A stretch of 37,793 nt of DNA from Actinomycetota bacterium (GCA_947472655.1 CANJCG010000003.1:1-37793); one strand, 5' to 3'; counted from the first letter of the stretch, positions 8,548 through 24,129 are shown. Numbers and translations are program-made. The notes: generated by a model not told the origin, from the letters alone.

Positions 8548-10082
8548 CGGACACCAGCATTAATCTCTTCGAGAGCCAGCTCGAGAACCACTCGGTCATC
8601 GAAAGGCGTCATCACTCCGGCAATCTCTTGACCTAGCTCATGCCCTTTGCCAAGAACCACAACCACATCGCCAGGGCGCGCTAACCTCACTGCAGTTGTG
8701 ACTGCCAAAGCCCGATCTGCCACTTCATGAATTGATTTACTTGGCACCTTGGACGCCTCGTTTACTCCAGCCAAGATTTCCGAACGAATCAGTGCTGGAT
8801 TTTCAGAGCGGGGATTGTCATCGGTGATAATGAGTTGATCAGCAAGGCTTGCCGCTAGCTGCCCCATGAGTGGCCGTTTGGTGGCATCACGATCGCCACC
8901 GGCACCCATAACCGCGATCACCTGACCTTTTGTGAGTTCGCGCACTGCAGTGAGCACTCGCTGCACGGCATCAGGAGTGTGTGCGTAATCGACAAAACCT
9001 TCGATCCCCGCGGCACCGTTGCTGCCCTGAATTTTTTCAAGGCGCCCAGCAACATGAACAGTTTTTAGAGCCGAGACAATCTCCTGGCTTGGGATATCAA
9101 TCAAACGCAGCATGGCATAGGCCAGTACTGCATTCGCTCGGTTGAATTCACCTGGCATTTGCAATTCAACCTCTACCTGCTCCCCTAACGGGCCACTGAT
9201 TTTTGCTTTTGTGAGCGAGGTGCGTTCAATGGACCAGTCAGCTTGTTTACCCGTTGCCGTGACGGTTGAAATAGGAATGTCAGTCTCGGCAACTAACCGC
9301 TCACCCCATGCCGAGTCAATACATACAACACCTCGACTCGCAAAATCTCGGTGAAAGAGTGACCTCTTAGCCTTGAAATAATTCTCCATCGTAATGTGGT
9401 AATCGAGATGATCTTGAGAAAGATTTGTGAACCCAACTATTTCGAAATGGATTCCTCCAACTCGGTGCTCACTCATCGCATGGCTTGAAACTTCCATCAC
9501 CACATCTGAAGCACCAAGATCACACATCTGAGCAAATAATTCATGCAAAGTCGTAGCTTCGGGAGTCGTTCGCGATGAGTTTAATACGTCTGCGCCAATG
9601 CGCACACCAGTTGTGCCAATGAATGCTGTAGCTCGGCCTGAGGCTTTCAAGGCGGCTTCAATCATGGTGGCAGTCGTTGTTTTTCCGTTCGTGCCAGTCA
9701 CTCCGAGTAACCGCAATTTCTCAACTGATCTACCGTAAATGAGATTTGCAACTGCACCCATCCATTTACGGGCATCGGGAATAGCGAGCACCGGAATCTG
9801 AAGTTCCAGGGATGATTCGCTATTGATTTTTGTCCAACCAGCAGTATCCGTGAGGATTGCAACAGCGCCACGCTCTATAGCTTCAGCGACAAACTGCAGT
9901 CCATGACTCTTGTGACCAGTGATCGCCGCAAACATGTCGCCTGGATTTACGTCTCGTGAATCTAAGGAAATGCCAGTGACAACGGTCTGGCTTGATCCAG
10001 ATAACTGCGCTTCAGGTATGCCCAAACTCATCAAAGCGGAGAGTTCAACCGGTGCCAGTTCTGCGTGAGCGTGTGATGCCAT
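8544..10082 (-). CDS. murE: UDP-MurNAc-L-Ala-D-Glu--meso-DAP ligase
   Basis: GTNGKTT, TTPEA, MEVSSH, DYAHTPDA and GKGHE motifs; DNPR motif indicates meso-DAP specificity. Confidence 0.96.
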   Translation of the reverse strand: MASHAHAELAPVELSALMSLGIPEAQLSGSSQTVVTGISLDSRDVNPGDMFAAITGHKSHGLQFVAEAIERGAVAILTDTAGWTKINSESSLELQIPVLAIPDARKWMGAVANLIYGRSVEKLRLLGVTGTNGKTTTATMIEAALKASGRATAFIGTTGVRIGADVLNSSRTTPEATTLHELFAQMCDLGASDVVMEVSSHAMSEHRVGGIHFEIVGFTNLSQDHLDYHITMENYFKAKRSLFHRDFASRGVVCIDSAWGERLVAETDIPISTVTATGKQADWSIERTSLTKAKISGPLGEQVEVELQMPGEFNRANAVLAYAMLRLIDIPSQEIVSALKTVHVAGRLEKIQGSNGAAGIEGFVDYAHTPDAVQRVLTAVRELTKGQVIAVMGAGGDRDATKRPLMGQLAASLADQLIITDDNPRSENPALIRSEILAGVNEASKVPSKSIHEVADRALAVTTAVRLARPGDVVVVLGKGHELGQEIAGVMTPFDDRVVLELALEEINAGVR

Positions 10083-10085
10083 CGA

Positions 10086-11873
10086 CTATCCCGCGGTAAG
10101 CAGCAGTCGTGGGGCGGTTTTGCCAGTTGGCGGAATACTGTGAGCCTGCAACGCGTATGTCATCACACGCTTGAATACAGGAGCTGCAATCTGCCCACCG
10201 AACCGACCATTACGCGGATTTACCAAACTGACCGCAACGACAAGTTGTGGATTGTCAGCTGGAGCCATTCCAATAAATGAAGCTACTACTTCGCCGTTAT
10301 AGCAGCGACAATTCGGATCAACATATTGCGCAGTTCCGGTCTTACCGCCTACGCGATAGCCAGGGATCGCAGCCTTAGGTGCAGTGCCGCCTTTACCGAC
10401 CACACCTTCCATCATGAGTCGGACTTGCTTTGCTGTTGAGGCCTTGATGACCTGCACAGCTTTAGGCGTTGGTGTTGGTGTAACTGTTCCATCGGGTGAG
10501 ATCACTGACTGCACTATGCGAGGCGGTACGCGCAATCCATCGTTGGCAATAGTTGCAAATATGCTGGCTGCTTGTAGTGACGTGACTGCCAACCCCTGTC
10601 CAAAGGCAACTGTGGGGAACGTTGTCGGTGACCAATCTTGGTAATCAGGAATTAGTCCGCGGCTTTCGCCAGGCAGACCTGAATCAGTTGATTCACCGAT
10701 TCCGAAAGCCTTGAGATAGGAATTCAATTTCTTGCTGCCAATACGTTCGGAGGCAAGAATCGTGCCCAAGTTGCTGGACTTGGCAAGAACCCCTGCAAGG
10801 GTTAAATGCCATGTTCCGTGCGCAACATCATCATGAAAAACTTTTCCGCCTCGCTTCAAAGTGCCAGGGATTGTGAAGGCGGTGCCTGCATTCGCTGCGC
10901 CTTGGTCAATAACTGCGCTCATTGTCATAACTTTGCTCGTTGAACCCGGCTCATAAACCTCAGAGACCGCACGATTACCGCGCACGGCATCTGAGGAGGA
11001 AGCTGCGGTGTTTGAATCGAAGGTCGGTGCCGTTGCCATCGCCAGAATATGTCCACTTCGCGGATCCAGAACTACAACAGTTCCGCTATCAGCGCGAGCC
11101 GATAACACCTGCCGCGCGATCTGTCGCTGAGCAACTAACTGAATGTCGCGATCGATCGTGAGCTGCACGTTTGAACCTTGTACAGAATCAGTGCTGGATA
11201 CATCACCTGTCGTGATGATTCGGTTACCTGAACCGCGCTCATAAGTTTTCGTTCCTGCTTTGCCAGCGAGCAAAGTCTGCATGCTTGATTCAATCCCACC
11301 CAGGCCCTTGCCGTCTGCGCCAACAAAACCAACCACGTTGGCTGCCAACTCTCCACCAGGATAAATACGGCGTTGAGTTTCTTCGCTGAAAATACCAGGC
11401 AACCTCAGCGCTTCGATTTCACGCCAGGTTGTTGGAGAAAGACCTTTTGCGATGTACATATACCGTCGCGTGCCCGTGAGTCGGTTAGCAAGAATTCCAG
11501 GATCAACGCCAAGAATCGGCGCAAGGGCGGCTCCGACTGCCGCTGGGTCAGTCACCAGCGTTTGATCAGCCGTGACATCACGAGCTTCTACAGTGGTAGC
11601 CATTGGCTGGCCAGTAGCGTCCAAAATACTGCCACGAATTGCTGGGATTGATAGCGTTTTGATTCGTTGATTTAAGGCCTGTGCTGCCAGATCAGACCCT
11701 TTGAAGACTTGCAAGTCAACGAGTCGCACCGCGAATAACGAAAAGGCGATCGTGGTGATGATCAGCAAGATCATCCCTCGCCTACCTCGATGACCAGTGC
11801 GCACCTGACGACGGTAGTTGCTCGGAGGTCCAGATTTGCGCTGCTGGCGCGGTGGGGCGACCAATTGCTTCAC
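10086..11873 (-). CDS. ftsI: Class B penicillin-binding protein (PBP3/FtsI)
   Basis: N-terminal TM; RGSILD; SxxK (EPGSTSK), SxN (KSSN) and KTG (GKTGTAQ) motifs. Confidence 0.95.
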   Translation of the reverse strand: MKQLVAPPRQQRKSGPPSNYRRQVRTGHRGRRGMILLIITTIAFSLFAVRLVDLQVFKGSDLAAQALNQRIKTLSIPAIRGSILDATGQPMATTVEARDVTADQTLVTDPAAVGAALAPILGVDPGILANRLTGTRRYMYIAKGLSPTTWREIEALRLPGIFSEETQRRIYPGGELAANVVGFVGADGKGLGGIESSMQTLLAGKAGTKTYERGSGNRIITTGDVSSTDSVQGSNVQLTIDRDIQLVAQRQIARQVLSARADSGTVVVLDPRSGHILAMATAPTFDSNTAASSSDAVRGNRAVSEVYEPGSTSKVMTMSAVIDQGAANAGTAFTIPGTLKRGGKVFHDDVAHGTWHLTLAGVLAKSSNLGTILASERIGSKKLNSYLKAFGIGESTDSGLPGESRGLIPDYQDWSPTTFPTVAFGQGLAVTSLQAASIFATIANDGLRVPPRIVQSVISPDGTVTPTPTPKAVQVIKASTAKQVRLMMEGVVGKGGTAPKAAIPGYRVGGKTGTAQYVDPNCRCYNGEVVASFIGMAPADNPQLVVAVSLVNPRNGRFGGQIAAPVFKRVMTYALQAHSIPPTGKTAPRLLLTAG

Positions 11874-11878
11874 GATCG

Positions 11879-12580
11879 CTACCGAACCGGAACAGCTACG
11901 AGACCTGCGTCACCCGAGCCGACGTTGCCAACCTGGATGGGCACTTCTTGCCAGAGTGAATCCTCACTCTTTTTTGCGCCTTTCGCCTTGGCCGCTGCTG
12001 CATCCGTTTTGGCTGGATCGTAATTAGGTCCTGGAACAGCTCGCTCACCAAGCGCACCGTTGTCTACTGCTTCACTAGCCGTCGCGTTTGCCGCAAGATT
12101 CAGTGGCACTCCGTCGCCAACGGCTGCCCGAGGCTTTCCAAGAACTGTGCCGTCAGGAACGCGCAAAAAAACTGGATTCTGGCTTGCCACCATGCCTAGA
12201 TCGTGCGCCATGTTCGCTAAGGATTCTGGTGCCGCTGCATTAGCTACTTGCTCACTCAAAACTGCTTCTTGTTCGCTCAAAGTGTTGAGCTGTGATTTCA
12301 ACGAACTCATCGCGAATGAGCCTTGTGCAAGTTGGGTGTTGATCACGAGCATCGCGCCAAGCCCAACGACAAGCAGAACACCAACGACGATCGCGAATGT
12401 TCCGCGACTTGCCTTAACCGGACGAAGAGGGGAAACCAATCTAAGATTTGGACGATCTTCATTTCGAGCAACCGCACCGCGAGTTGCATACTCAGTTACT
12501 TCTGCAGCAAGTGCTGTTGCGCCAGCCACCGCGCCGTGGAATGCGCGGCCAGCAAATTCACGTGGGGTCTGCCGACTCAT
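11879..12580 (-). CDS. ftsL: FtsL-like bitopic cell division protein
   Basis: Between rsmH and ftsI; one TM helix, then a leucine heptad coiled coil and [11 protein letters not shown]. Confidence 0.75.
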
Positions 12581-13518
12581 GCTGCCACCCGCTCAAGTGC
12601 ACGAACTCGAACTGATGCAGAGCGCGGATTCTCATCCAACTCTTGTTCGGTTGGGGTTTCGGCTCCACGAGTCAGAAGTCGCAGTTTTGGTTGGTGCTCG
12701 GCTGGGATCACAGGCATGCCATGGGGCACCTTTGCTGTGGTCTGCTCCGTAAAAACCTGCTTTACGAAGCGGTCTTCGAGTGACTGGTACGACATCACAA
12801 CGAGTCGACCGTCAACCGCTAGTGCTTGGATCGCAGCAGGGATAGCTGAACGCAGGGAATCGAGTTCACCGTTGACTTCAATACGAAGCGCTTGGAAGGT
12901 GCGCTTTGCCGGGTTGCCACCAGTACGTCGAGTAGCTGCCGGAATGGCTTCGCGCACGAGTTCAACAAGACGAGCAGAATTCGTGAAGGGTGCATCTTCG
13001 CGGGCAGCCACAATGCGTCGAGCAATTCGCATTGCGAACTTTTCATCGCCGTATTCGCGGAGCACATCGGCTAGTTGTCCTGCACCATACGTATTAACAA
13101 CATCTGCTGCCGTGATTCCGCGTGATTGATCCATCCGCATGTCAAGGGGCGCATCTTGCGAATAAGAAAACCCGCGATCGCGCAGATCAAGTTGCATAGA
13201 GGAAACTCCGAGGTCGAACAAGATACCTTGGACGGAAGAAAACCCAAGCTCTGCAAGGACTTCTGGCAATTCGTCATAAACAGCGTGCACGAGATTTGCC
13301 CGATCACCGAATGGCGCTAATCGCTGACGCGACTTCTCAAGAGCATCTGTATCGCGATCGAGTCCGATGAGGCGAAGTCCTGGGAATTCAGTGAGTGCGT
13401 ACTCAGCGTGACCACCTAGACCAAGAGTCGCATCAACTAAAATTGCATCGGGTGTGCTGATCGCTGGTGCGAGAAGTGCGAATACGCGCTCGCGCATGAC
13501 TGGGATATGGATGCTCAT
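12577..13518 (-). CDS. rsmH: 16S rRNA m4C1402 methyltransferase RsmH (MraW)
   Basis: [36 protein letters not shown] and NPRSAS motifs. Confidence 0.97.
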
Positions 13519-13667
13519 GAACTCAAGCCATCAACAATCGCAGAGATCGCTGCCAACGTTAGTGCGGTGAAACTTCCGGCCACGATAAGGAGTCCAAACG
13601 CGCGAGCACCGTGACGAGCGGCATGGCTGTCAACCATGTCCGTCAGGGTGTTCGTTGGCGTTGTCAT
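13515..13667 (-). CDS. Unannotated 50-aa small membrane protein, translationally coupled to rsmH
   Basis: SD GAAAGGAAG just before ATG 13667; [50 protein letters not shown]; hydrophobic stretch at residues 23-45; stop TGA overlaps the rsmH ATG (ATGA). Confidence 0.7.
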
Positions 13668-13726
13668 GACTTCCTTTCGTGTGGTGCACGGTTCGCGGTC
13701 AAAGAAGGTGTTGTACGCATTCGGGT

Positions 13727-13810
13727 GATCAGGTCCCCGCCCGTCCCTTGCTTCTCCAGGCTCCGGGGAAGTGAGTCAGGAACAGTTCAGCAACGGGAGG
13801 AGGCCTCACC
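13727..13810 (-). ncRNA. mraW RNA motif-like structured element (boundaries approximate)
   Basis: In the mraZ-rsmH intergenic region; minus-strand stem UCCC(G)UUGCU/AGCAAGGGA encloses a hairpin with loop ACUUCCCCG complementary to downstream GGGGAC; position and CUUCCCC/GGGGAC pattern resemble the actinobacterial mraW motif as I recall it. Confidence 0.7.
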
Positions 13811-13816
13811 ACTCGA

Positions 13817-14248
13817 TTACAAAATTCCGGGAACAACCTCCTCGCTGATGTCCGAGTAGGCGTCTTCTTGGCTAGCCAGGTAGCTCTCCCATGCGGAGGC
13901 ATCCCAGATTTCTACGGTGGTGCCATTACCGACCACCACAACATCTCGATCAAGTCCGGCATATTCACGAAGGGCGGCGGGGAGCGTCACTCGACCCTGC
14001 TTATCTGGCACTTCGTCAAAAGCTCCGGAGAAAAGCACACGCAGATAGGCGCGGACTTTGGCATCAGAGCGAGAAGCTTCATTGAGGCGATCAGCGTGAT
14101 CAGCGAATTCAGCAGCTGGCCAGACCACTATCGAGCGATCTTGGCCCTTGGCCATCACTAAACCAGCCGCGAATCCCTCACGGAACTTTGCTGGTAGGAC
14201 AAGCCGACCTTTGTCATCAATACGGGGGGCATGCGTACCTAGAAACAT
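13817..14248 (-). CDS. mraZ: Transcriptional regulator MraZ
   Basis: MFLGTHAPRIDDKGRLVLPAKFR and second repeat DKQGRVTLP...VEIWD; SD GGGGAGGT. Confidence 0.97.
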   Translation of the reverse strand: MFLGTHAPRIDDKGRLVLPAKFREGFAAGLVMAKGQDRSIVVWPAAEFADHADRLNEASRSDAKVRAYLRVLFSGAFDEVPDKQGRVTLPAALREYAGLDRDVVVVGNGTTVEIWDASAWESYLASQEDAYSDISEEVVPGIL

Positions 14249-15706: not shown

Positions 15707-16093
15707 CTACTCGTCTCCTTGGCGCTTGCGCCAGCGATCTTCGACACGATCCATGAATGAGGTCTTCGGCGCATTGGGTTTAGGTGAACTGCCCGCATTT
15801 CCAGCATTGGGATCAACGACTACAGCTGGAGTCTTAAAAGCGGAATACACCAGCACCGCACCGATCAACATCACTGCAAAACCAACGATGCCAACGAGGG
15901 TCGCTTGTAGAGCCATCGCCGTAACGAGCAAAGCAATACCACCGAAAGCAACCAAGACACCTAAAGCCGCTTTGCCCCGTGATGCGCGAGCTAGGGATGC
16001 TGAGCGCAGACTGGTAGCGAACTTTGGATCCTCGGCATAGAGCGCGCGCTCCATTTGCTCGAGCAGGCGCTGTTCGTGCTCTGACAACGGCAT
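15707..16093 (-). CDS. DUF3040-family membrane protein
   Basis: MPLSEHEQRLLEQMERALYAEDPKFA, two TM helices, C-terminal FMDRVEDRWRKR; SD AAGGGGAG. Confidence 0.9.
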   Translation of the reverse strand: MPLSEHEQRLLEQMERALYAEDPKFATSLRSASLARASRGKAALGVLVAFGGIALLVTAMALQATLVGIVGFAVMLIGAVLVYSAFKTPAVVVDPNAGNAGSSPKPNAPKTSFMDRVEDRWRKRQGDE

Positions 16094-16187: not shown

Positions 16188-17426
16188 CTATTCGCCCTCG
16201 GGCGTGACTAATCGGGCAGATCTGACCGCCTTTGGTCCGAATCTGACCCGTAACTGATCGATGGCTACTTCAGCATCTCGGCGCCCGTGCTCTGGCTCCC
16301 CCAGGAGTAACTGTTGAGCCGCACCTGCGCTTGCCTGCAAGCCATCTAGTCGAACGCCAACGAGGCGCACCCGGGCCCGCTGCAACCCAAGGGCATCAAA
16401 GAGTTGCTTGGCCGTGGTGTAAATCTCTTGGGTGACATCGGTGGACTCACTCAACGTTTTAGAACGAGTGATAGTGCTGAAATCAGAAAAACGCACTTTG
16501 AGATGCACACTGCGTGCAACCCGATCCGACTTACGTAGTCGGCTACCCACTTGATCACTGAGTTGCATCAGATGTGCGTGAATCGTTGGCGCATCCTCGA
16601 GATCGTCGACAAAAGTTTCTTCTGCACTAATGCTCTTATCTGGCACGTGCGCAGTAACCGAACGCTGATCCCGGCCCCAAGACAAGTCGTGAAGATGCGC
16701 GCCTGCAGCTACGCCAACTGCCCTCTGCAACGTAGCAAGTGGGGTGTGTGCGATATCTGCAACGGTAGTCAAGCCCAAACGTGTGAGTTGCTCTTCAGTC
16801 TTCTCGCCTACTCCCCATAATGCACCAACGGGCAAGGGATGCAAGAAGGCTAAAACCTCTTGAACTGGAACCACCATGAGCCCATCAGGCTTAGCTCGAG
16901 TTGACGCTAACTTCGCAATGAATTTTGTTGATGCAACTCCGACTGAACACGTGATTCCCTGCTCGTCGTGAACACGCGCTCGAATCATTTCACCGATTTC
17001 AGTTGGACTACCAAGACGTCGCAAACTCCCGCTGATATCAAGGAAGGCTTCGTCAACACTTAAGGGTTCAACTGCCGGAGTGACCGATGAGAAAAGTTCC
17101 ATGATCGACCGACTCACTTCTGCGTACTTGTGATGTGACGGCGTGATGACAACGGCAGTAGGCGCAAGTCGGCGGGCTCGACTCATTGGCATCGCCGAAT
17201 GCACGCCCATAGCTCGCGCTTCATATGTTGCTGAGAGCACTACGCCACGGGAACCGCCCGCGCCAATAATCACCGGCTTGCCGTGCAGTTCTGGCCTTGT
17301 GCGCAACTCAACTAATGCAAAGAATGCGTCCATATCAACATGCAAAATTGTGCAGCCAGCATCGTCATTGCCCACGCCGGATGTACCGACCGAGCGACGT
17401 ACCTGATTACGACTCACACTGACCAT
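16188..17426 (-). CDS. dinB: DNA polymerase IV (Y family), catalytic residues intact
   Basis: ILHVDMDAFF, SATYEAR, PLSVDEAFLD, AKLAS...KPDG, little finger (LKVRFSDFSTITRS, VRLVGVR); SD GGGGAG. Confidence 0.95.
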   Translation of the reverse strand: MVSVSRNQVRRSVGTSGVGNDDAGCTILHVDMDAFFALVELRTRPELHGKPVIIGAGGSRGVVLSATYEARAMGVHSAMPMSRARRLAPTAVVITPSHHKYAEVSRSIMELFSSVTPAVEPLSVDEAFLDISGSLRRLGSPTEIGEMIRARVHDEQGITCSVGVASTKFIAKLASTRAKPDGLMVVPVQEVLAFLHPLPVGALWGVGEKTEEQLTRLGLTTVADIAHTPLATLQRAVGVAAGAHLHDLSWGRDQRSVTAHVPDKSISAEETFVDDLEDAPTIHAHLMQLSDQVGSRLRKSDRVARSVHLKVRFSDFSTITRSKTLSESTDVTQEIYTTAKQLFDALGLQRARVRLVGVRLDGLQASAGAAQQLLLGEPEHGRRDAEVAIDQLRVRFGPKAVRSARLVTPEGE

Positions 17427-17441
17427 TGTTGCGCTCCCCTG

Positions 17442-20400
17442 CTACCAACCGCTGCTACCTGGACTGCTGTGCCACAACTTTGTGACTGGACCTGCCGGTA
17501 CGACATCGGCGTAAGGGGAAACCCGGAAACCGCTGGCATGCACTAATACCCGAGAGCCTGTGGCATCGACCCCAACCGGCCGGTCACTTATCAATGTCTG
17601 ACGAACCGCATCTGTGCCTGACGTGCGCCAGTGCTCGTGCACCGCACCCAGTTCCCATGCTCCTGTAGCCCGAATTGAGACGCCTCGCGGGCCAGTTCGA
17701 CGAACATGTCCACGCACGAGCAATAGCCAAGAGGAAAAGACCGTACTGGCGTATGGCACTTGGAAATCTTCGAAGAAAGTGGCATCAAGCGGACCTGTGG
17801 CGTCGTCAAGGGTTAAAAAAATGACGCGCTTACCGGTACGAATTGGCGGAGTTTGGGTGGCGACCTTCACTCCTGCGATGTAGATCTCTTGCTCAGAGCG
17901 GCAATTCAATAATTGCTCAGCGCGCGTGATCCCTAGCTGTGTAAGCATCGGCCTGAAGAACTCAATGACATGTTTACTCACATCAAGGCCGAGAAGATCC
18001 AACTCAGCACGCACTGACTCGCCGATAGTCATCTCTGGTAACCCAGATGCCGGAGTGGTTGCTGGGTCATCGCCTAGGTCAAGAAGTAACTGACCTGGGC
18101 CATCACCTCGCGGACGCCTACCAAGATCCGCAAGCTGCAATAACAGATCTCGACGAGTGAGGTGTCCGCGTTCGCGCACTGATCGGTTGCGGTCGATGTC
18201 ATATAAATGATCAAAGGCACCTGTCAGGACGAGATGCTCTGCTGTGGGGCGTGCAATTCCCGAACGGTTCCACGCATCACTTAAGGATTGATACGGCTGG
18301 CCAGCAACCAGTCGTTTAACTTCATCCGCATTGATGCCTTTGACTTCAACAAAAGGGACACGCACGCCTTCTCCGGTTGGCGTTGACTCGACTTCATATA
18401 CCTGTGTAGAACGATTAATATCAATACCAAGAATTTCTACCCCAAAATGTCGGGCATCATCAAGGATGAGTCGCTTGGGATACATCCCCGGATCGTGGGT
18501 AAGGATGCCGGCATAAAACGCGGCTGGGTGATGAGTTTTCAGCCAGGCTGATTGATACGTCGGCAGTGCAAAAGCTGCTGCATGGGCTTTACAAAAACCA
18601 AATGACGCGAAGGAACGCAAGACATCCCAGACTTTTTCCACAACCTCTAAGGAGTATCCGCGCCGTAGCGCCGTGGGATAAAACCAGGTGCGCACATCGT
18701 CAATACCTAGGTGAGTATTCATCGAACGACGAGTCTCATCGGCTTCAGCGAGCGAACATCCCGTCATCACCGAAACGATGCGCATCACTTGTTCATGAAA
18801 GACAACGACACCTTGGGTTTCTTCCAGAATTGGGCGTAGATCCTCGTGCACAAACTGCGGTGCGCACCAGCCTTGCCGAGCACGCAAGAATGGATTAATC
18901 ATGTCTGACTTCACCGGGCCTGGGCGAAATAACGAGATATCAATAATGAGATCGTTAAACGTTTCAGGGCCAAACTTGCCGATAAGTTCGCGCTGACCGG
19001 GTGACTCGATCTGAAAACAGCCCAGAGTTCGAGTTGAAGCAATCAACTCATAGGTTGCTGGATCGTCAAGTGGCACATGCTGAAGTGCGAGTGTGACTCC
19101 CTTGGTGCGCTGGACCTCTGACACCGTGTGTGCAATTGATGACTGCATTCGCACACCCAACACATCAAGCTTGAGTAATCCCATGTGCTCGACATCGTCT
19201 TTATCAAACTGACTCATGGGGTAACCCGCATTACTGGATTGCACTGGAGTGCGATCAAGAAGAGATACGTCAGAAAGCAATACGCCGCATGGATGCATCG
19301 CGATATGACGAGGCAAGCCATCGAGTGCTTCAACACGAGCAAGGAAACTATCCAGTTTGCCTTGCGCTGCCATCACCCCAAACCGACTGCGTTTGAGCTC
19401 GGGTAGATCATCGAGAGCTGCTCGAGCATTACGGGCACGAATATGCGGAAACGCTTTAGCGAACGAGTCGATCTCATCAGCAGGTAAACCAAAGGCCGCG
19501 CCTACATCACGAATGGCATGCCGTACGCGATAGGTCTCCATCATGGAAACGCACGCCACCCGCTTGTCGCCGAACCGTTCAAAGATCCAGTCGTAAATTT
19601 CAAGGCGGCGATCAGATTCAACATCAATATCAATATCCGGTAATTCCTTACGCAAGGTCGACAGGAACCTTTCCATAAGCAATCCGTGCGAAAGCGGATC
19701 AACTCCGCTGATGCCAAGCAAGTAATTCACCAAACTTCCTGCACCTGAGCCTCTCGCGGCAACACGCACTTTGCGGCTCGTAACAAGATCAACAACTTCA
19801 GCAACCGTAAGAAAGAATCCGGCAAAACCCAAAGCACCAATCGTTCGCAACTCTTCTTCGAGACGAATACCAGCGGTTTGTTGATCAGCCGTAGACGAAT
19901 ACCGCTGCGAGATTGCAAGGTGACACCGCGTTGCAAGCAGCGCTTGGGCTTGTTGTACTTCATTGCTTGAATCCGCAGCCGTAGCTCCAGTCAAAACATC
20001 AAGTTCGGGAACAAAAGCCTGTCCCAGACCCAAATCATTTTCTGGGTCAAGCGCGCAACTTTCAATCAGGGTCCAGGTATCTCGATGCAAGGTAGAACGT
20101 GCAATTCCAGCAGCCTGAGCAATCTCTTGAACTCTTGCATCAAGTGCTTGTGGGCTATCCAAGATCGCCTCGCCGTTGTTACCCACCACTCGCGATGAAC
20201 TCAACGGCACTAGTTGGCGTGCAGCATCCAATACGTCTGCAGTGGCTGCATCTGCTGCTTCCAAATATCTCGCACCGTGACTCAACACCACTCGTACGTG
20301 ATGTTCGCGCGCCCAACGCCACATCGCGGCGGCCTGACTTGTGGACCAGACAGCCTTGTGATCAGTGCGATGACTTCCAATCGCAATCGCAAGACTTGGG

Positions 20401-20936
20401 CCTACGAGATCACGCCAATGCTGAAGCACTGCAGCAGCTGCTCGTAATTGTCCACGCAATAAGCAAGCACCAAGTTCAGAATCGGGGCCCAGGAGCGCGA
20501 CTAAGCCTTGGCTATGCGCAATGACATCTGATATTTCCAGAATCGGCATTCCATAGGTATCGGTGTTGGCGTGTGCAGCTGAAATCAATCGACATAGCGA
20601 AGCCCAGCCCTGCTTGCCTCGAGCAAGAAACACCACTCGGGTATCTCCTTGTGCTACCCATGCGCCGCCTCGAGCAGGTGTACGGCGGGCTCTCGAATCA
20701 ACCACCGGAGCATGGATAGGAACCACCGCGAGGTCAACTCCCACAACTGGCGTAATACCCGCACTCAGCGCAGCTTGCACCCACTGAACTGCGCCATACA
20801 CCCCATCGCGATCAGTGAGCGCGATGATGTGATGACCATCAGCTGCAGCACGCTCAATGAGCCGCGCAGGGGTCGCTGTGCCGTACTGCAAGGAATAACT
20901 CGAGGCCACACGCAGATGCGGCCATGACAACAACAT
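17442..20936 (-). CDS. dnaE2: C-family DNA polymerase alpha subunit, accessory error-prone DnaE2-like clade
   Basis: ARGSGAGS, LPDIDID and KLDVLG catalytic motifs, GFCKAHAAAF, OB fold; PHP ligands degenerate (HLRVAS, LTDRDG, GVDL); ends KLWHSSPGSSGW; start moved to ATG 20936 (GGAG 5 nt upstream). Confidence 0.88.
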   Translation of the reverse strand: MLLSWPHLRVASSYSLQYGTATPARLIERAAADGHHIIALTDRDGVYGAVQWVQAALSAGITPVVGVDLAVVPIHAPVVDSRARRTPARGGAWVAQGDTRVVFLARGKQGWASLCRLISAAHANTDTYGMPILEISDVIAHSQGLVALLGPDSELGACLLRGQLRAAAAVLQHWRDLVGPSLAIAIGSHRTDHKAVWSTSQAAAMWRWAREHHVRVVLSHGARYLEAADAATADVLDAARQLVPLSSSRVVGNNGEAILDSPQALDARVQEIAQAAGIARSTLHRDTWTLIESCALDPENDLGLGQAFVPELDVLTGATAADSSNEVQQAQALLATRCHLAISQRYSSTADQQTAGIRLEEELRTIGALGFAGFFLTVAEVVDLVTSRKVRVAARGSGAGSLVNYLLGISGVDPLSHGLLMERFLSTLRKELPDIDIDVESDRRLEIYDWIFERFGDKRVACVSMMETYRVRHAIRDVGAAFGLPADEIDSFAKAFPHIRARNARAALDDLPELKRSRFGVMAAQGKLDSFLARVEALDGLPRHIAMHPCGVLLSDVSLLDRTPVQSSNAGYPMSQFDKDDVEHMGLLKLDVLGVRMQSSIAHTVSEVQRTKGVTLALQHVPLDDPATYELIASTRTLGCFQIESPGQRELIGKFGPETFNDLIIDISLFRPGPVKSDMINPFLRARQGWCAPQFVHEDLRPILEETQGVVVFHEQVMRIVSVMTGCSLAEADETRRSMNTHLGIDDVRTWFYPTALRRGYSLEVVEKVWDVLRSFASFGFCKAHAAAFALPTYQSAWLKTHHPAAFYAGILTHDPGMYPKRLILDDARHFGVEILGIDINRSTQVYEVESTPTGEGVRVPFVEVKGINADEVKRLVAGQPYQSLSDAWNRSGIARPTAEHLVLTGAFDHLYDIDRNRSVRERGHLTRRDLLLQLADLGRRPRGDGPGQLLLDLGDDPATTPASGLPEMTIGESVRAELDLLGLDVSKHVIEFFRPMLTQLGITRAEQLLNCRSEQEIYIAGVKVATQTPPIRTGKRVIFLTLDDATGPLDATFFEDFQVPYASTVFSSWLLLVRGHVRRTGPRGVSIRATGAWELGAVHEHWRTSGTDAVRQTLISDRPVGVDATGSRVLVHASGFRVSPYADVVPAGPVTKLWHSSPGSSGW

Positions 20937-20945
20937 AAAAACTCC

Positions 20946-21026
20946 AGAAGAAAAGGAAAAGTAAGAAGCGACAGCTACCGGTTGGGAAGGCACCACAACC
21001 GATAGCCGTTGCACTTCGGCTGTCGG
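20946..21026 (-). terminator. Terminator/antiterminator-like element between the HEPN gene and dnaE2
   Basis: 11-bp stem 20974-20984/20996-21006 followed on the minus strand by UGUCGCUUCUUACUUUUCCUUUUCUU; overlapping alternative stem 20999-21008/21017-21026. Confidence 0.55.
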
Positions 21027-21041
21027 GGATCAGCCGGTGAC

Positions 21042-21485
21042 CTAGCTGCCAGTAGGCAGCATGGATTGATGCGTTACACCAAGGGATGCGGTGACACGCT
21101 CAACAAAAGTTTCGACATCGCGAACCAGGTCATCGGCCTCACGAGAAGTCACACAGGGCACACCTGCCTGCGCAAGAGTTCGCTTGCGAGCCCCAGCCGC
21201 AAAAAAGTCGGACCATTCGGCGAACTCGCCCGCAACTTCCGGGAGTACTTGCCACACGCTGCGCACCCGGCTGCGAGATTTACGTTGAACTCGGCCGTGC
21301 GTTGCTAGTACAGCTGCTGCTGCTCGCAGCGCGGCCAAATGGGCTGCTGCATATCTATCAGCAGCTGTGCTGGCCACGATCGCCTCGGTCAGGCTGCGGC
21401 GAGCTGCAGTAATGAGTTCATGTGCTGCTGAAGGAAGTGCGCTCAGCGCGGTGGCTGAGCGGGGGGTTGCTATCAGAATTGCCAT
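21042..21485 (-). CDS. SAV_6107-family HEPN-domain protein
   Basis: DRYAAAHLAALRAAAAVLA, SVWQVLPEVAGEFAEWSDFFAAGARKR and VTSREADDLVRDVETF patterns; start moved to ATG 21485 with SD AAGGAG. Confidence 0.85.
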   Translation of the reverse strand: MAILIATPRSATALSALPSAAHELITAARRSLTEAIVASTAADRYAAAHLAALRAAAAVLATHGRVQRKSRSRVRSVWQVLPEVAGEFAEWSDFFAAGARKRTLAQAGVPCVTSREADDLVRDVETFVERVTASLGVTHQSMLPTGS

Positions 21486-21640
21486 GACAAGCTCCTTATT
21501 CGGGATGTGGTTCGACTTCTTGTACTTCGACCCATCGACCCCGGCTCCTTGCACCGCCGAGCCCGGGGTCGAAGCGAGCCCGGCGGGGCAAGAAAGCTCT
21601 CTGAGAACCCCGGCCGCGAATCCTGCGAGCCTCAGAGTGT

Positions 21641-21656
21641 TCGAACACTTGTTCGA
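21641..21656. promoter_or_regulatory. LexA (SOS) box, actinobacterial consensus
   Basis: TCGAAC-ACTT-GTTCGA is a perfect TCGAAC-N4-GTTCGA. Confidence 0.9.
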
Positions 21657-21665
21657 ACAAGACAC

Positions 21666-21695
21666 ACGTTAGCCCGAAGGCCTGACAGTCGTCAA
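21666..21695 (-). promoter_or_regulatory. Promoter of the HEPN-dnaE2-dinB operon: SigA-like -35/-10 plus PafBC (RecA-NDp)-type motif
   Basis: Minus strand TTGACG-N18-TAACGT containing TGTCAG-N10-TAACGT. Confidence 0.75.
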
Positions 21696-21764
21696 TCCCA
21701 CACGTTCTTTATGTCTATGTTCCCCCTCAGATATGGTCCGCAATACCCAAGTCAAGGAGCACTC

Positions 21765-22577
21765 ATGAGCAAGGTTTGGTTCATCACAGGAGCATCACGC
21801 GGCTTTGGCCGTTCGTGGACAATCGCAGCGCTCGAACGCGGCGATCGTGTTGCCGGCACCGCTCGCGATATCTCCATGCTCAGTGACTTGGTTGCCACCT
21901 ACGGCGATGCCTTTTTGCCGTTGCAGCTTGATGTCACCGATCGTTCTGGTGATTTCGCTGCTGTTCAACAAGCTCACGAATACTTCGAACGACTTGATGT
22001 CGTGGTGAACAACGCTGGCTACGGTCATTTCGGCTTCACTGAAGAACTGTCTGAAGTTGATATTCGCAATCAAATGGAAACGAACTTCTTTGGTGCCCTC
22101 TGGGTAAGCCAGGCAGCAATTCCCATCATGCGCAATCAAGGCTCCGGCCACATCATTCAAATCTCAAGCGTTGGCGGGGTCTGTGCCTTCCCAATGCTCG
22201 GTGCCTACAACGCGTCAAAGTGGGCACTAGAAGCTATGAGTGAAGCACTCTCCCAAGAAGTTGCTGACTTTGGCATCAAGGTGACGATCATTGAACCTGC
22301 AGGATTTGCTACTGAATGGGGAAATACTTCATCGGTCCACTCCACTGCACTTTCACAGTACGCAGATAAACGAGCAGCACGCGCAGCAGCAGCACGCCAA
22401 ACGCCTCCAGCGGAAGCCACAAATGCTGCGATTTTTGCTGCGGTTGATGCCGAACACCCACCACTTCGTTTGCTGCTCTCGAGCTTTGCTAGCACCCTTG
22501 TCAACATTGCATACGACAAGCGGTTGGCTGAGTGGGATCAATGGAGCGAAGTCACTACGGCTTGCGACAACGTGTAA
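21765..22577 (+). CDS. Short-chain dehydrogenase/reductase (SDR)
   Basis: TGASRGFG, NNAGYG, YNASK; real start ATG 21765 with SD AAGGAG. Confidence 0.93.
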   Translation: MSKVWFITGASRGFGRSWTIAALERGDRVAGTARDISMLSDLVATYGDAFLPLQLDVTDRSGDFAAVQQAHEYFERLDVVVNNAGYGHFGFTEELSEVDIRNQMETNFFGALWVSQAAIPIMRNQGSGHIIQISSVGGVCAFPMLGAYNASKWALEAMSEALSQEVADFGIKVTIIEPAGFATEWGNTSSVHSTALSQYADKRAARAAAARQTPPAEATNAAIFAAVDAEHPPLRLLLSSFASTLVNIAYDKRLAEWDQWSEVTTACDNV

Positions 22578-23328: not shown

Positions 23329-24129
23329 ATGAGTGTGCGGGTATATACGGGGGGTCATGCCGATCGCGGCAGCAACCTTCCGTCGTGGGTACCAAAGGTT
23401 CCCTGGGCACTTCTCGGTATTGGAATTTTTTCCCAAATAGCCTGGATTTTGGTCGATGGCAACGTCCGTCGAATCTTGACTATCGTTTCGGTTCTTGCGT
23501 TCTTTGGCGCCTCAGCGATCCATGCTCGCCTGACACGTCGCACGAAATGGACGCTTGAATACCTCGGCATCACTCTTGGTGTGAGTTTCCTCGTAGAAGT
23601 TCTCGGTGTTGCAACACAATTCCCATTTGGTGAATACGCCTACACCGATGCTCTTGGGCCACAACTTTTCGGTGTTCCCTTGCTCATCCCGCTGGCATGG
23701 GCCTCGATGGCTTACCCCTGTCTGTTAGCGGCGCAAAGACTTGCAGTCGACCCACTGGCCACTGTCCTTATCGGTGGTGTGCTGCTTGCTTCGTGGGATC
23801 TTTTCCTTGATCCACAAATGGTGAGCCAGGGCTACTGGACCTGGGCCAATACTGGCTGGGAAATTCCTGGCATCGACGGCATCCCATTGCAGAATTTCTT
23901 AGGCTGGCTACTCACCGCCTTTGTCTTGATCGCTCTGCTTGATCGACTTCCTCGCCGGGTCGCGAAAGACGGCGTTCCCGTCGTGATGCTCAGTTGGTTG
24001 TATGTCTCAAATGTGATGGCAGCACTCGTGTTCTTTGGTCGACCAGGAGTCGCCTTATGGGGCGCAGTAATCATGGGCGCCATTGTCATTCCCTGGTGGT
24101 GGCGAAGTTGGAGCAGGCCGCAATGGTGA
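23329..24129 (+). CDS. cruF: Carotenoid 1',2'-hydratase (CruF-like)
   Basis: Multi-TM; EVLGVATQFPFGEYAY, GVPLLIPLAW, WDLFLDPQMV...YWTW, GIPLQNFLGW. Confidence 0.85.
   Translation: MSVRVYTGGHADRGSNLPSWVPKVPWALLGIGIFSQIAWILVDGNVRRILTIVSVLAFFGASAIHARLTRRTKWTLEYLGITLGVSFLVEVLGVATQFPFGEYAYTDALGPQLFGVPLLIPLAWASMAYPCLLAAQRLAVDPLATVLIGGVLLASWDLFLDPQMVSQGYWTWANTGWEIPGIDGIPLQNFLGWLLTAFVLIALLDRLPRRVAKDGVPVVMLSWLYVSNVMAALVFFGRPGVALWGAVIMGAIVIPWWWRSWSRPQW

What the first reader, a model, noticed from the sequence alone, without database searches (positions are those of the whole stretch)
16188..21695. Candidate ImuAB-independent mutasome: damage-inducible HEPN - DnaE2-like - active DinB operon
Seen: three co-oriented genes behind one promoter with a perfect LexA box; dnaE2 and dinB are 15 bp apart. 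The C-family polymerase keeps its catalytic aspartates (PDIDID, KLD), has a degenerate PHP site and ends KLWHSSPGSSGW. DinB keeps DMDAF and SVDE. Known: the canonical cassette is imuA'-imuB-dnaE2, where ImuB is a catalytically dead Y-family scaffold and DnaE2 usually ends in an SRDF-type motif. Here an active Pol IV replaces ImuB, an uncharacterised SAV_6107 HEPN protein replaces ImuA', and the tail differs. Inference: a distinct translesion or mutagenesis system, possibly an inserter-extender pair with a HEPN-fold adaptor or RNA-binding regulator. This is my best candidate for an undescribed system.
Basis: partly seen in the sequence, partly recalled or inferred. Interest (0 to 1): 0.82.

Follow-up and report, generated by a model that had tools for sequence, protein, structure and literature searches.

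The report
SOS-controlled HEPN-DnaE2B-DinB polymerase operon
A freshwater actinobacterium carries a DNA-damage-switched operon with two error-tolerant DNA polymerases of an already published, ImuA/ImuB-free type, headed by a small helical HEPN protein whose conserved link to these polymerases has not been described in the papers searched.

Summary
Three co-oriented genes lie behind a perfect actinobacterial LexA box. It is one of only four such boxes in the 1.66 Mb assembly; the others front recA, lexA and ruvC. The genes are HEPN_SAV_6107, a C-family polymerase with an intact palm, a degenerate PHP and a KLWHSSPGSSGW tail, and an active DinB 15 bp downstream.

The polymerase is not canonical ImuC. 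It falls in a separate clade with Streptomyces DnaE2, and near-complete genomes of the same genus hold no ImuB-like gene.

This is not an undescribed system. ImuA/ImuB-free "DnaE2B" paired with RecA-motif Y-family polymerases was published in 2019 and 2026. The SOS-induced Streptomyces dnaE2-dinB2 operon was published in 2011.

The usual actinobacterial block is LexA box, DUF6504 (probably ImuB-C), HEPN, DnaE2B, methyltransferase, DinB, DUF3040, beside the dcw cluster. This genus has lost DUF6504 and the methyltransferase.

The HEPN link is the new part:
- HEPN is single-copy in 102 of 121 Actinomycetes genomes.
- It lies directly upstream of DnaE2B in 53 of the 68 genomes that have both.
- It also stays with DinB alone, or with neither polymerase.

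A HEPN-DinB complex prediction gave only weak support. Verdict: a new variant of a known kind, of moderate interest.

The parts
21641..21656 (.). LexA (SOS) box TCGAACACTTGTTCGA, a perfect palindrome
   Evidence: It is the only match in the window. It is one of 4 perfect boxes in the assembly; the others front recA, lexA and ruvC. 62 of 80 related DnaE2B loci hold a perfect box.
21666..21695 (-). Promoter-like element TTGACG, 18-nt spacer, TAACGT, ending 9 nt upstream of the LexA box (inferred)
   Evidence: Read directly from the sequence. The consensus scan did not report it, so this is inference only.
21042..21485 (-). HEPN_SAV_6107 protein, 147 aa, the first gene of the operon
   Evidence: PF18726, E 1.3e-30. 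AF2 model with pLDDT 88.9 and pTM 0.79, all-helical. Best structural matches are HEPN proteins: 2hsb with Z 15.4, rmsd 2.4 over 116 residues, then 1ufb, 3o10, 1wol and 4nqf. AAGGAG precedes the ATG.
17442..20936 (-). DnaE2B-type C-family DNA polymerase (the ORF is open up to a GTG at 21014; the likely start is the ATG at 20936)
   Evidence: It sits in a clade with Streptomyces DnaE2. The PHP is degenerate. The clade-specific C-terminal tail is present.
16188..17426 (-). Active DinB/Pol IV-type Y-family polymerase with a clamp-like QLLLGE motif and a RecA-N-terminus-like motif at its C-terminus
   Evidence: The catalytic D31, D33, D125 and E126 are invariant in 24 of 24 orthologues. The tail AEVAIDQLRVRFG aligns with the own-genome RecA N-terminus ETALAQIERQFG.

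Best explanation
This is an SOS (LexA/RecA)-controlled translesion-synthesis cassette of the actinobacterial 'DnaE2B' type. It is a reduced form.

Proposed working:
- DNA damage leads to LexA cleavage, which derepresses one transcript: HEPN, DnaE2B, DinB (possibly running on into DUF3040).
- DinB is a catalytically competent Pol IV-like enzyme. It is recruited through a clamp-binding-like motif and a RecA-N-terminus-like motif.
- DnaE2B is a catalytically competent C-family polymerase with a dead PHP domain and a clade-specific (K/R)LWHxSPGSxG tail. It works without ImuA'/ImuB.
- The block is vertically inherited beside the dcw cluster. The fuller form is LexA box, DUF6504 (probable standalone ImuB-C), HEPN, DnaE2B, methyltransferase, DinB, DUF3040. 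This Nanopelagicales genus has lost DUF6504 and the methyltransferase.
- The HEPN protein has the HEPN fold and lacks the canonical His at the usual RNase position. It is most likely a small accessory or regulatory subunit of the polymerases, tied at least as much to DinB as to DnaE2B.

Shown: gene content, motifs, the box, clade membership, absence of ImuB-like genes in near-complete congeners, and conserved synteny.

Inferred: co-transcription, damage induction in this organism, joint action of the polymerases, and any HEPN-polymerase contact.
For: SOS control:
- The box is one of 4 perfect boxes in the assembly, with recA, lexA and ruvC.
- A perfect box is present in 62 of 80 DnaE2B-anchored loci.
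- Tsai et al. 2011 (PMC3273824, passages read) measured about 6-fold UV induction of the orthologous Streptomyces dnaE2 and dinB2.

DnaE2B identity:
- 632 bits against the NF004225 cut-off of 939; canonical DnaE2 of three relatives scores 1393-1441 bits.
- The tree of 36 rows gives DnaE1-like 7, canonical DnaE2 5 and DnaE2B-like 24. The last group includes the window and the Streptomyces copies whose stop overlaps an inactive dinB2 (ATGA). All three splits have SH-aLRT 100.
- Tail: 22 of 24 clade members end in H-x-S-x-G-x-x-G (18 with LWH). 5 of 5 canonical copies end in SR(D/N)F.

No ImuA/ImuB:
- One Y-family gene in G000 (74% complete).
- One Y-family gene each in G003 and G009 (97-99% complete). 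G018, G021 and G023 each have a second, divergent Y-family gene directly upstream of canonical DnaE2.
- No homologue of the presumed ImuA'.
- PMC12926913 section 20 (read) states that DnaE2B occurs in genomes without imuA or imuB and associates with RecA-NT-bearing PolYs. It describes DnaE2-[ImuB-C]-PolY-RecA as an Actinobacteria-only type.

Synteny:
- Of 80 DnaE2B-anchored loci, DUF6504 is present in 68, HEPN in 66, DinB in 66, DUF3040 in 59 and the methyltransferase in 40. Six loci have the window's reduced form.
- DUF6504 is over its cut-off in 0 of 13 genomes of the window's genus, but in 11 of 31 relatives, where it lies just upstream of HEPN.

HEPN link:
- In 121 class genomes, HEPN is present in 102 and DnaE2B-like in 78. 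Both are present in 68, and HEPN lies within 1 kb upstream on the same strand in 53 of those 68. This becomes 50 of 65 without the unpublished genomes G202, G206 and G213.
- In G003 and G008 of the same genus, HEPN-DinB keeps its own perfect box, while DnaE2B sits elsewhere behind another perfect box.

Complex prediction, HEPN with DinB: verdict weak support.
- Score 0.47 (runs 0.47, 0.54, 0.47); best of 3 controls 0.01.
- The mark was reached by 58 of 80 solved complexes and 2 of 110 mismatched pairs. At 0.60 or under it was reached by only 7 of those 80 solved complexes and by both mismatches that passed.
- The runs agree in at least 77% of contacts. The partner's pLDDT is at least 75.
- My own alignments were used, so the calibration counts hold only roughly.
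Against: - No expression data exist for this organism.
- Streptomyces dnaE2 deletion changed neither UV killing nor UV mutagenesis (PMC3273824, passage read), so the function of this DnaE2 clade is unproven anywhere.
- HEPN is not confined to the polymerases. 34 of 102 HEPN-positive class genomes lack a DnaE2B-like gene. Only 12 of those 34 have the DinB orthologue within 3 kb downstream (hand count).
- 22 of 22 Streptomyces loci are HEPN-methyltransferase-DUF3040 with no polymerase and no GAAC-N4-GTTC core upstream.
- 10 genomes have DnaE2B-like without HEPN.
- The complex score is in the band the tool calls 'more often wrong than right unless the guess was likely beforehand'.
- The box lies in a divergent region and could also, or instead, serve the SDR gene.
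- R44-x4-H49 is nearly invariant in the HEPN family, so a catalytic role is not excluded.
Confidence: 0.55

Rival explanations
1. The two polymerases form the published DnaE2B-PolY SOS cassette, but the HEPN protein is not their partner. It is an independent, near-universal Actinomycetes gene that sits at this position only because the whole region beside the dcw cluster is syntenic by descent. Here it shares the LexA-controlled promoter by position.
For: - HEPN is single-copy in 102 of 121 class genomes, whether or not DnaE2B is present: 68 have both, 34 have HEPN only, 10 have DnaE2B only and 9 have neither, an odds ratio of about 1.8.
- 22 of 22 Streptomyces loci keep HEPN with the methyltransferase and DUF3040. 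They have no polymerase and no SOS-box core.
- In G021, HEPN stands beside an amine oxidase gene.
- In Propionibacteriaceae-type loci the LexA box lies between HEPN and DinB.
- DUF3040 is the commonest neighbour: 65 of 80 HEPN-anchored loci.
- The small genomes of family f83 have DnaE2B-DinB without HEPN.
Against: - Same-strand adjacency within 1 kb in 53 of the 68 genomes that have both genes, spread over many families.
- When the block splits (G003, G008), HEPN stays with DinB behind its own perfect LexA box.
- G021's lone HEPN still has a perfect box.
- Weak but control-clean complex score with DinB: 0.47 against a best control of 0.01. The mark was reached by 58 of 80 solved complexes and 2 of 110 mismatched pairs. 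At 0.60 or under it was reached by 7 of those 80 and by both mismatches that passed. Contacts agree in at least 77% and the partner's pLDDT is at least 75.
Confidence: 0.3
2. The HEPN protein is an SOS-induced nuclease or toxin-like effector, for example an RNase that slows growth or translation while lesions are bypassed, or a defence component. It is not a polymerase subunit.
For: - It has the HEPN fold. Structural neighbours include HEPN toxins of HEPN-MNT pairs, AbiV, Csm6 and LsoA, with Z 8.7-9.5.
- It gives a weak match to a PADLOC defence-candidate component, PDC-M05B, E 3.5e-6.
- R44-x4-H49 is at least 90% conserved in 37 sequences.
Against: - Anantharaman et al. 2013 (PMC3710099, table passage read) list SAV_6107 as a family without a conserved Rx4-6H motif.
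- The R-x4-H seen here sits in the second helix, not at the usual position in the last helix, which reads READDLVRD. That the last helix is the usual position is recalled, not tested.
- No MNT or antitoxin-like partner is adjacent.
- It is a single-copy, vertically inherited core gene, which is unlike mobile toxin or defence genes.
Confidence: 0.08
3. The polymerase is a canonical ImuC that depends on imuA'/imuB genes located elsewhere in the genome, in the unassembled 26% of this MAG.
For: - G000 is only 74% complete.
- In M. tuberculosis, dnaE2 and imuA'-imuB are unlinked (recalled, not from a call).
Against: - Clade and HMM scores separate it from canonical DnaE2.
- Its tail differs from the SR(D/N)F tail.
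- G003 and G009 (97-99% complete, same genus) have one PF00817 gene each.
- There is no homologue of the presumed ImuA'.
- The published statement says DnaE2B genomes lack imuA and imuB (PMC12926913, section 20).
Confidence: 0.03

Closest known systems
Putative DnaE2B-based complexes of Actinobacteria: DnaE2-[ImuB-C]-PolY-RecA (e.g. Tessaracoccus lapidicaptus) and DnaE2B-PolY-RecA (NAR 2026, PMC12926913; NAR 2019, PMC6511836)
   Same: - A DnaE2 outside the ImuA/ImuB-linked DnaE2A group, in genomes without imuA or imuB.
[quoted passage not shown]
- LexA control.
- Restriction to Actinobacteria.
   Different: - This genus lacks the standalone ImuB-C/DUF6504 gene: 0 of 13 genomes over the cut-off. 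By content it therefore resembles the type reported for Bacteroidetes (DnaE2B-PolY-RecA).
- The papers' main texts do not mention a HEPN component (0 occurrences of 'HEPN' in PMC12926913). Supplements could not be seen.
- My equation of DUF6504 with ImuB-C is inferred. hmmscan gave no hit and hhalign gave 7% probability against actinobacterial ImuB C-termini.
Streptomyces dnaE2-dinB2 operon (SCO1739-SCO1738; Tsai et al. 2011, PMC3273824)
   Same: - Orthologous DnaE2 clade: 50-52% identity and the same tail.
- A Y-family gene immediately downstream.
- An SOS box upstream.
- UV and alkylation induction has been shown there.
   Different: - Streptomyces DinB2 lacks the catalytic motifs (called inactive in PMC6511836). 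The DinB here is active.
- In Streptomyces the HEPN gene stays at the dcw-side locus without polymerases or an SOS box.
Canonical ImuA'-ImuB-DnaE2 (ImuC) mutasome
   Same: An SOS-induced C-family polymerase with an inactive PHP, paired with a Y-family protein that bears clamp and RecA-NT-type motifs.
   Different: - A different DnaE2 clade and a different tail.
- The Y-family partner is catalytically intact.
- No ImuB-like gene and no homologue of the presumed ImuA' were found in the congeners searched.
- No ImuB-C domain.
Small accessory subunits of Y-family mutasomes: UmuD'2 (Pol V), YolD/YqjX, ImuB-C
   Same: A small protein encoded at the head of an SOS operon with a RecA-NT-bearing Y-family polymerase. 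There is weak predicted contact with the polymerase.
   Different: Those subunits are beta-structured (SH3-like or a beta-barrel, per PMC6511836 and PMC12926913). This one is an all-helical HEPN bundle. No binding has been shown.
HEPN domains attached to nucleotidyltransferases (HEPN-MNT pairs, aminoglycoside nucleotidyltransferases, AbiA polymerase)
   Same: The HEPN fold. Structural neighbours include NTase-linked HEPN domains: 3c18, 3jyy, 2pbe, 6nlt, 7ae2 and 8oz7, with Z 8.0-10.8. The neighbouring gene encodes a nucleotidyltransferase-type enzyme.
   Different: There is no MNT gene. Sequence similarity is limited to the fold. Two singleton HEPN-PHP fused proteins may be gene-call run-throughs.

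Membership tests
Canonical ImuA'-ImuB-DnaE2 (DnaE2A/ImuC) mutasome | The polymerase belongs to the error-prone DnaE2 family (NF004225 over its cut-off, or the canonical clade) | tested here: not met
   631.6 bits against a cut-off of 939. Canonical copies in G018, G021 and G023 score 1393-1441 bits. The window's polymerase is in a separate clade with SH-aLRT 100.
Canonical ImuA'-ImuB-DnaE2 (DnaE2A/ImuC) mutasome | A catalytically dead Y-family ImuB is encoded in the genome | tested here: not met
   A single Y-family match in G000 and in G003 and G009, which are 97-99% complete. Positive controls G018, G021 and G023 show a second, divergent PF00817 gene upstream of canonical DnaE2.
Canonical ImuA'-ImuB-DnaE2 (DnaE2A/ImuC) mutasome | ImuA' is encoded in the genome | tested here: inconclusive
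   The ORF upstream of imuB in G018 was taken as ImuA' by position only; it has no Pfam hit. It finds no homologue in G000, G003, G009 or G016 at E <= 0.01. This was a single-sequence query.
Canonical ImuA'-ImuB-DnaE2 (DnaE2A/ImuC) mutasome | SR(D/N)F-type C-terminal motif | tested here: not met
   The window ends KLWHSSPGSSGW. 5 of 5 canonical copies end SRDFR, SRNFR, SRNFG or SRDFQ.
DnaE2B-PolY(-RecA) association modules (PMC12926913) | The DnaE2 is in the clade of S. coelicolor DnaE2, outside DnaE2A | tested here: met
   It groups with the Streptomyces copies that have the ATGA overlap with an inactive dinB2. The label DnaE2B is transferred from the paper through Streptomyces. The paper's own tree is in supplements I could not see.
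DnaE2B-PolY(-RecA) association modules (PMC12926913) | The genome lacks imuA and imuB | tested here: met
   (see the rows above). The imuA part is weaker.
DnaE2B-PolY(-RecA) association modules (PMC12926913) | The associated Y-family polymerase carries a RecA-NT-like motif | tested here: met
   The DinB tail AEVAIDQLRVRFG aligns with the own-genome RecA N-terminus ETALAQIERQFG. A388, D390 and G397 are invariant in 24 orthologues. This is a motif-level match only.
DnaE2B-PolY(-RecA) association modules (PMC12926913) | Standalone ImuB-C, for the actinobacterial DnaE2-[ImuB-C]-PolY-RecA subtype | tested here: not met
   PF20114/DUF6504 is over its cut-off in 0 of 13 genomes of the genus, but is present upstream of HEPN in 11 of 31 relatives and in 68 of 80 related loci. 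That DUF6504 equals ImuB-C is inferred.
DnaE2B-PolY(-RecA) association modules (PMC12926913) | The proteins form a physical complex | not testable with these tools
DnaE2B-DinB-RecA was not modelled here.
LexA (SOS) regulon of Actinomycetes | A TCGAAC-N4-GTTCGA operator at the promoter | tested here: met
   LexA binding and induction themselves were not tested.
HEPN superfamily (PF18726 SAV_6107 family) | Family HMM match and a four-helix HEPN fold | tested here: met
   106 bits against a cut-off of 27.2. VIA-align gives 2hsb Z 15.4 (rmsd 2.4, 116 aligned), 1ufb Z 13.2 (rmsd 2.1, 108 aligned) and 3o10 Z 13.0 (rmsd 3.1, 117 aligned). Foldseek's best hit is 2hsb at E 0.039, with none at E <= 0.001.
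HEPN superfamily (PF18726 SAV_6107 family) | A catalytic Rx4-6H motif at the canonical position | tested here: inconclusive
   The last helix reads R115-EADDLV-R122 with no His. A nearly invariant R44-x4-H49 lies in the second helix. PMC3710099 lists the motif as not conserved for this family. No activity test was done.

The most novel reading that the evidence does not exclude
HEPN_SAV_6107 is an unrecognised accessory subunit of SOS translesion polymerases, found in most Actinomycetes sampled. It would be a helical, fourth kind of small mutasome subunit beside UmuD', YolD/YqjX and ImuB-C. On this reading it binds the RecA-NT-bearing DinB, the PHP side of DnaE2B, or both. In lineages like this one, which have lost ImuB-C, it would be the only adaptor coupling the Y-family inserter to the C-family extender.
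Probability: 0.25. Interest if true: 0.65.

Novelty: new variant of a known kind. Interest (0 to 1): 0.45.

Why it matters
DnaE2-type polymerases drive damage-induced mutagenesis, including drug-resistance mutations in mycobacteria. How the ImuA/ImuB-free DnaE2B enzymes work is unknown. The only genetic test, in Streptomyces, gave no phenotype.

This survey adds three things:
- It places the window's operon in that published class.
- It shows that the class is part of a vertically inherited block beside the cell-division (dcw) cluster.
- It shows that a single-copy HEPN protein heads the cassette in most lineages, and stays with DinB when the block splits.

That gives a concrete, cheap hypothesis to test: HEPN as a polymerase accessory factor. 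The minimal three-gene version found here would be the simplest form to reconstitute.

Tried and rejected
- RNA evidence: the look-up of sequencing runs listed no RNA holder. Two metatranscriptome runs of the same sample hold next to none of the stretch's words.
- The search of earlier findings: one search was rejected for a word format.
- Promoter and terminator scan: nothing was reported in the 21486-21764 intergenic region and no terminator after dinB. The promoter I list is read by eye only.
- Foldseek against the PDB gave no match at E <= 0.001. The HEPN fold rests on VIA-align and Pfam.
- DUF6504 = ImuB-C: hmmscan of three actinobacterial ImuB-like ORFs gave only PF00817. hhalign of DUF6504 against ImuB C-termini gave probability 7%, E 0.005. 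The equation therefore rests on three points. The Caulobacter control genome rings for PF20114. DUF6504 occupies the position the papers give to ImuB-C. Both share a W..WW...W.(V/I)EA..(Y)D pattern seen by eye.
- Fusions: the search for longer HEPN homologues found 9 proteins. Two singletons carry PF18726 plus PF02811. This is too thin to count as a Rosetta-stone link.
- ImuB-C as the gene between dnaE and dinB in other lineages: rejected. That gene is a class I SAM methyltransferase.
- HEPN and DUF6504 as mutually exclusive alternatives: I considered this after and rejected it. 57 of 80 DnaE2B-anchored loci have both (sum of the rows that hold both).
- Literature: 'SAV_6107' gives 1 paper. 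'HEPN' + 'dnaE2' gives 0. 'HEPN' + 'DinB' + 'SOS' gives 2 unrelated papers, seen in the listing only. 'DUF6504' gives 0. The supplementary tables and trees of PMC12926913 and PMC6511836 may list gene neighbours, including this HEPN family.
- The phylum-wide sample was mostly other classes and was not useful for co-occurrence. HEPN was over its cut-off in 8 of 151 genomes, and 7 of those 8 are class Actinomycetes.
- One count in my notebook (entry 4, '21/24' for the tail) was recounted as 22 of 24 with H-x-S-x-G-x-x-G, of which 18 have LWH.

Full report
**What is there.** The window comes from a MAG labelled by its nearest public relatives as Candidatus Nanopelagicales (81% identical polymerase in L004). 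The assembly has 1.66 Mb in 182 contigs and is 74% complete.

On the minus strand lie three co-oriented genes:
- a PF18726 HEPN_SAV_6107 protein, 21042-21485, 147 aa from an ATG behind AAGGAG;
- a C-family polymerase, 17442-20936 from an ATG behind GGAG, with the ORF open up to 21014;
- a Pol IV-type Y-family polymerase, 16188-17426.

The last two are 15 bp apart. The first two are 105 bp apart if the ATG is the start. Downstream follow a DUF3040 membrane protein, a lipase-like gene, mraZ and the dcw cluster. Upstream, divergently, lies an SDR gene.

**The LexA box.** TCGAACACTTGTTCGA at 21641-21656 is unique in the window. The laid genome has only four perfect boxes and no shuffle produced any. 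The other three sit in front of recA, between lexA and a LysM gene, and in front of ruvC. The operon therefore carries an operator of the same grade as the core SOS genes of this organism. Binding and induction are inferred, not shown. No RNA run holding the stretch was listed.

**The polymerases.** The C-family enzyme keeps PDIDID and KLD. Its PHP metal ligands are replaced, when compared with the same genome's DnaE1.

It scores 632 bits on the error-prone DnaE2 model (cut-off 939) and 620 on the DnaE1 model (cut-off 1002). Three relatives in the same order have true canonical DnaE2 at 1393-1441 bits.

I built a maximum-likelihood tree of 36 proteins. 54 candidate ORFs were filtered to 36 by phmmer at E <= 1e-40, which removed spurious high-GC ORFs. 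It gives three groups, each at SH-aLRT 100:
- DnaE1-like (7 rows);
- canonical DnaE2 (5 rows);
- a third clade (24 rows) holding the window's protein and the Streptomyces DnaE2 copies.

In those Streptomyces copies the stop codon overlaps the ATG of a catalytically dead dinB2. This is the arrangement Tsai et al. described for SCO1739/SCO1738 (PMC3273824).

- 22 of 24 members of the third clade end H-x-S-x-G-x-x-G (18 with LWH);
- 5 of 5 canonical copies end SR(D/N)F;
- the DnaE1-like rows end differently again.

DinB keeps all catalytic acids in 24 of 24 orthologues. It ends with QLLLGE followed by a stretch that aligns with the RecA N-terminus of the same genome.

**ImuA/ImuB independence.** The MAG has one Y-family gene. 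Two genomes of the same genus that are 97-99% complete also have one. The three relatives with canonical DnaE2 have a second, divergent Y-family gene right upstream of it. The ORF preceding that gene, presumably imuA', has no homologue in four genomes of the window's family.

**It is already in print.**
- Timinskas and Venclovas (PMC6511836, passages read) described Y-family/DnaE2 operons without ImuA, including the Streptomyces pair, and the RecA-NT motif.
- The 2026 survey (PMC12926913, section 20 and passages read) divides DnaE2 into A, B and X groups. It states that DnaE2B occurs in genomes without imuA or imuB. It lists the actinobacterial types DnaE2B-iPolY-RecA, DnaE2-[ImuB-C]-PolY-RecA and DnaE2-[ImuB-C].
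- Tsai et al. showed an SOS box and about 6-fold UV induction of dnaE2 and dinB2, and found no phenotype for a dnaE2 deletion.

**The wider block.** I took 80 loci anchored on the polymerase (594 relatives found, best 80 kept). Within the flanks they hold:
- DUF6504 in 68;
- HEPN in 66;
- DinB in 66;
- a perfect LexA box in 62;
- DUF3040 in 59;
- a SAM methyltransferase between dnaE and dinB in 40.

Two of the 14 loci without HEPN have no upstream DNA. The modal order is box, DUF6504, HEPN, DnaE2B, (methyltransferase), DinB, DUF3040. The window's reduced form occurs in 6 loci, all Nanopelagicales-like.

DUF6504 is the small beta-rich ORF at the position the papers give to standalone ImuB-C. 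The direct tests of that identity were weak. It is missing from all 13 genomes of the window's genus and present just upstream of HEPN in other families of the order.

**The HEPN gene.** I took 80 HEPN-anchored loci, with an Embleya sequence first in the query alignment (570 relatives, best 80 kept).
- 32 have DnaE2B, 46 have DinB, 62 have the methyltransferase and 65 have DUF3040.
- 22 loci, all titled Streptomyces, are HEPN-methyltransferase-DUF3040 with no polymerase and no SOS-box core.

In an even sample of 121 Actinomycetes genomes:
- HEPN is single-copy in 102 and a DnaE2B-like gene is present in 78;
- 68 have both, 34 have HEPN only, 10 have DnaE2B only and 9 have neither;
- HEPN lies directly upstream of DnaE2B in 53 of the 68 with both;
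- 13 more have the two genes on different contigs, several at contig ends.

Three unpublished genomes (G202, G206, G213) are among the 53. Of the 34 HEPN-only genomes, 12 have the DinB orthologue within 3 kb downstream (hand count).

Within the window's own genus the block is split in G003 and G008. HEPN-DinB stays beside DUF3040 and mraZ behind its own perfect box. DnaE2B sits elsewhere behind another perfect box, next to an SRAP gene. Genomes with the canonical imuB-dnaE2 cassette (G018, G023) still have HEPN-DinB-DUF3040.

HEPN is therefore neither a replacement for ImuA' nor specific to DnaE2B. Its gene order with the SOS polymerases is, however, conserved far beyond chance neighbourhood.

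**What HEPN might be.**
- The AF2 model is confident (pLDDT 88.9, pTM 0.79) and all-helical.
- VIA-align puts five HEPN proteins on top, from 2hsb at Z 15.4 (rmsd 2.4, 116 aligned) to 4nqf at Z 11.6. NTase-linked HEPN domains and HEPN toxins follow. Foldseek alone was weak.
- The family keeps R44-x4-H49 in its second helix, and E90, W91, R115, D119 and R122. It has no His at the usual motif position. This agrees with its listing as a motif-less HEPN-M family (PMC3710099).
- One complex job, HEPN against DinB with my alignments, returned 'weak support': score 0.47 (0.47, 0.54, 0.47), best of 3 controls 0.01.
- The mark was reached by 58 of 80 solved complexes and 2 of 110 mismatches. At 0.60 or under it was reached by only 7 of the 80 and by both passing mismatches.
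- Contacts agree in at least 77% across runs and the partner's pLDDT is at least 75.

I take this as a lead, not as evidence of binding. HEPN against the DnaE2B PHP domain, where ImuB-C is modelled to bind in the canonical system (PMC12926913), could not be tested.

**Verdict.** The system is a lineage-reduced member of the published DnaE2B-PolY class, so I file it as a new variant of a known kind. The part not found in the searched literature is the conserved HEPN gene at the head of the cassette, and its persistence with DinB.

My odds:
- 0.55 that HEPN is a polymerase accessory factor within an SOS translesion cassette;
- 0.30 that it is a syntenic bystander;
- 0.08 that it is an SOS nuclease or toxin-like factor;
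- 0.03 that the polymerase depends on canonical ImuA'/ImuB.

Noticed in passing
window 250-14248: The operon lies directly beside the dcw cell-division and cell-wall cluster (rsmH at 12577-13518, mraZ at 13817-14248; the upstream mur/fts-size ORFs were not annotated individually). Across Actinomycetes the whole HEPN...DinB-DUF3040 block keeps this position next to mraZ.
   Followed up: partly
window 15707-16093 (-): A DUF3040 membrane protein (PF11239, E 2e-25) lies 94 bp downstream of dinB on the same strand. It is the most persistent neighbour of the block: 59 of 80 and 65 of 80 loci. Whether it is co-transcribed is unknown.
   Followed up: partly
L105 5124-5828 (+), box at 5887 (G003, same genus): Where DnaE2B has moved away from HEPN-DinB, it sits behind its own perfect LexA box, directly after an SRAP (SOS response associated peptidase) gene, PF02586, E 3e-62.
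   Followed up: no
e.g. L028 8937-9701, L044 8464-9255: In 40 of 80 related loci a class I SAM-dependent methyltransferase (PF08241 and PF13649) lies between dnaE2B and dinB. In Streptomyces it remains next to HEPN without any polymerase. Its role is unknown.
   Followed up: partly
L157, L166, L173, L193 (Propionibacteriaceae-type loci): In loci with HEPN-DinB and no DnaE2B, the perfect LexA box lies between HEPN and DinB (for example L157: HEPN 7001-7372, box at 7421, DinB from 7464). There, HEPN would not be under that box.
   Followed up: no
window 21042-21485 (-): HEPN gives weak, full-length matches to the PADLOC defence-candidate component PDC-M05B (E 3.5e-6, 2.5e-5 and 1.4e-3). The nature of that candidate system was not looked up.
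   Followed up: no
P0010, P0012: Two singleton database proteins (272 and 617 aa) carry both PF18726 (HEPN) and PF02811 (PHP). They are either real HEPN-DnaE2B fusions or gene calls that run through the short gap.
   Followed up: no
G209, G230, G251, G268, G283 (family f83, 1.4-1.5 Mb single-contig genomes); L069, L071: Very small Actinomycetes genomes keep DnaE2B-like immediately followed by DinB, but have no HEPN hit. L069 and L071 also lack the C-terminal tail motif or a perfect box.
   Followed up: partly
window 21765-22577 (+): An SDR-family oxidoreductase starts 108 bp from the LexA box on the other strand. The box could in principle also affect it. In G003 the SDR gene is about 1.5 kb from the box.
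   Followed up: no
window 23329-24129 (+) and L102, L104: A carotenoid biosynthesis protein (PF04240) and, in relatives, an amine-oxidase/phytoene-desaturase-like gene lie on the far side of the block. In G021, HEPN stands alone between these genes with a perfect LexA box.
   Followed up: no
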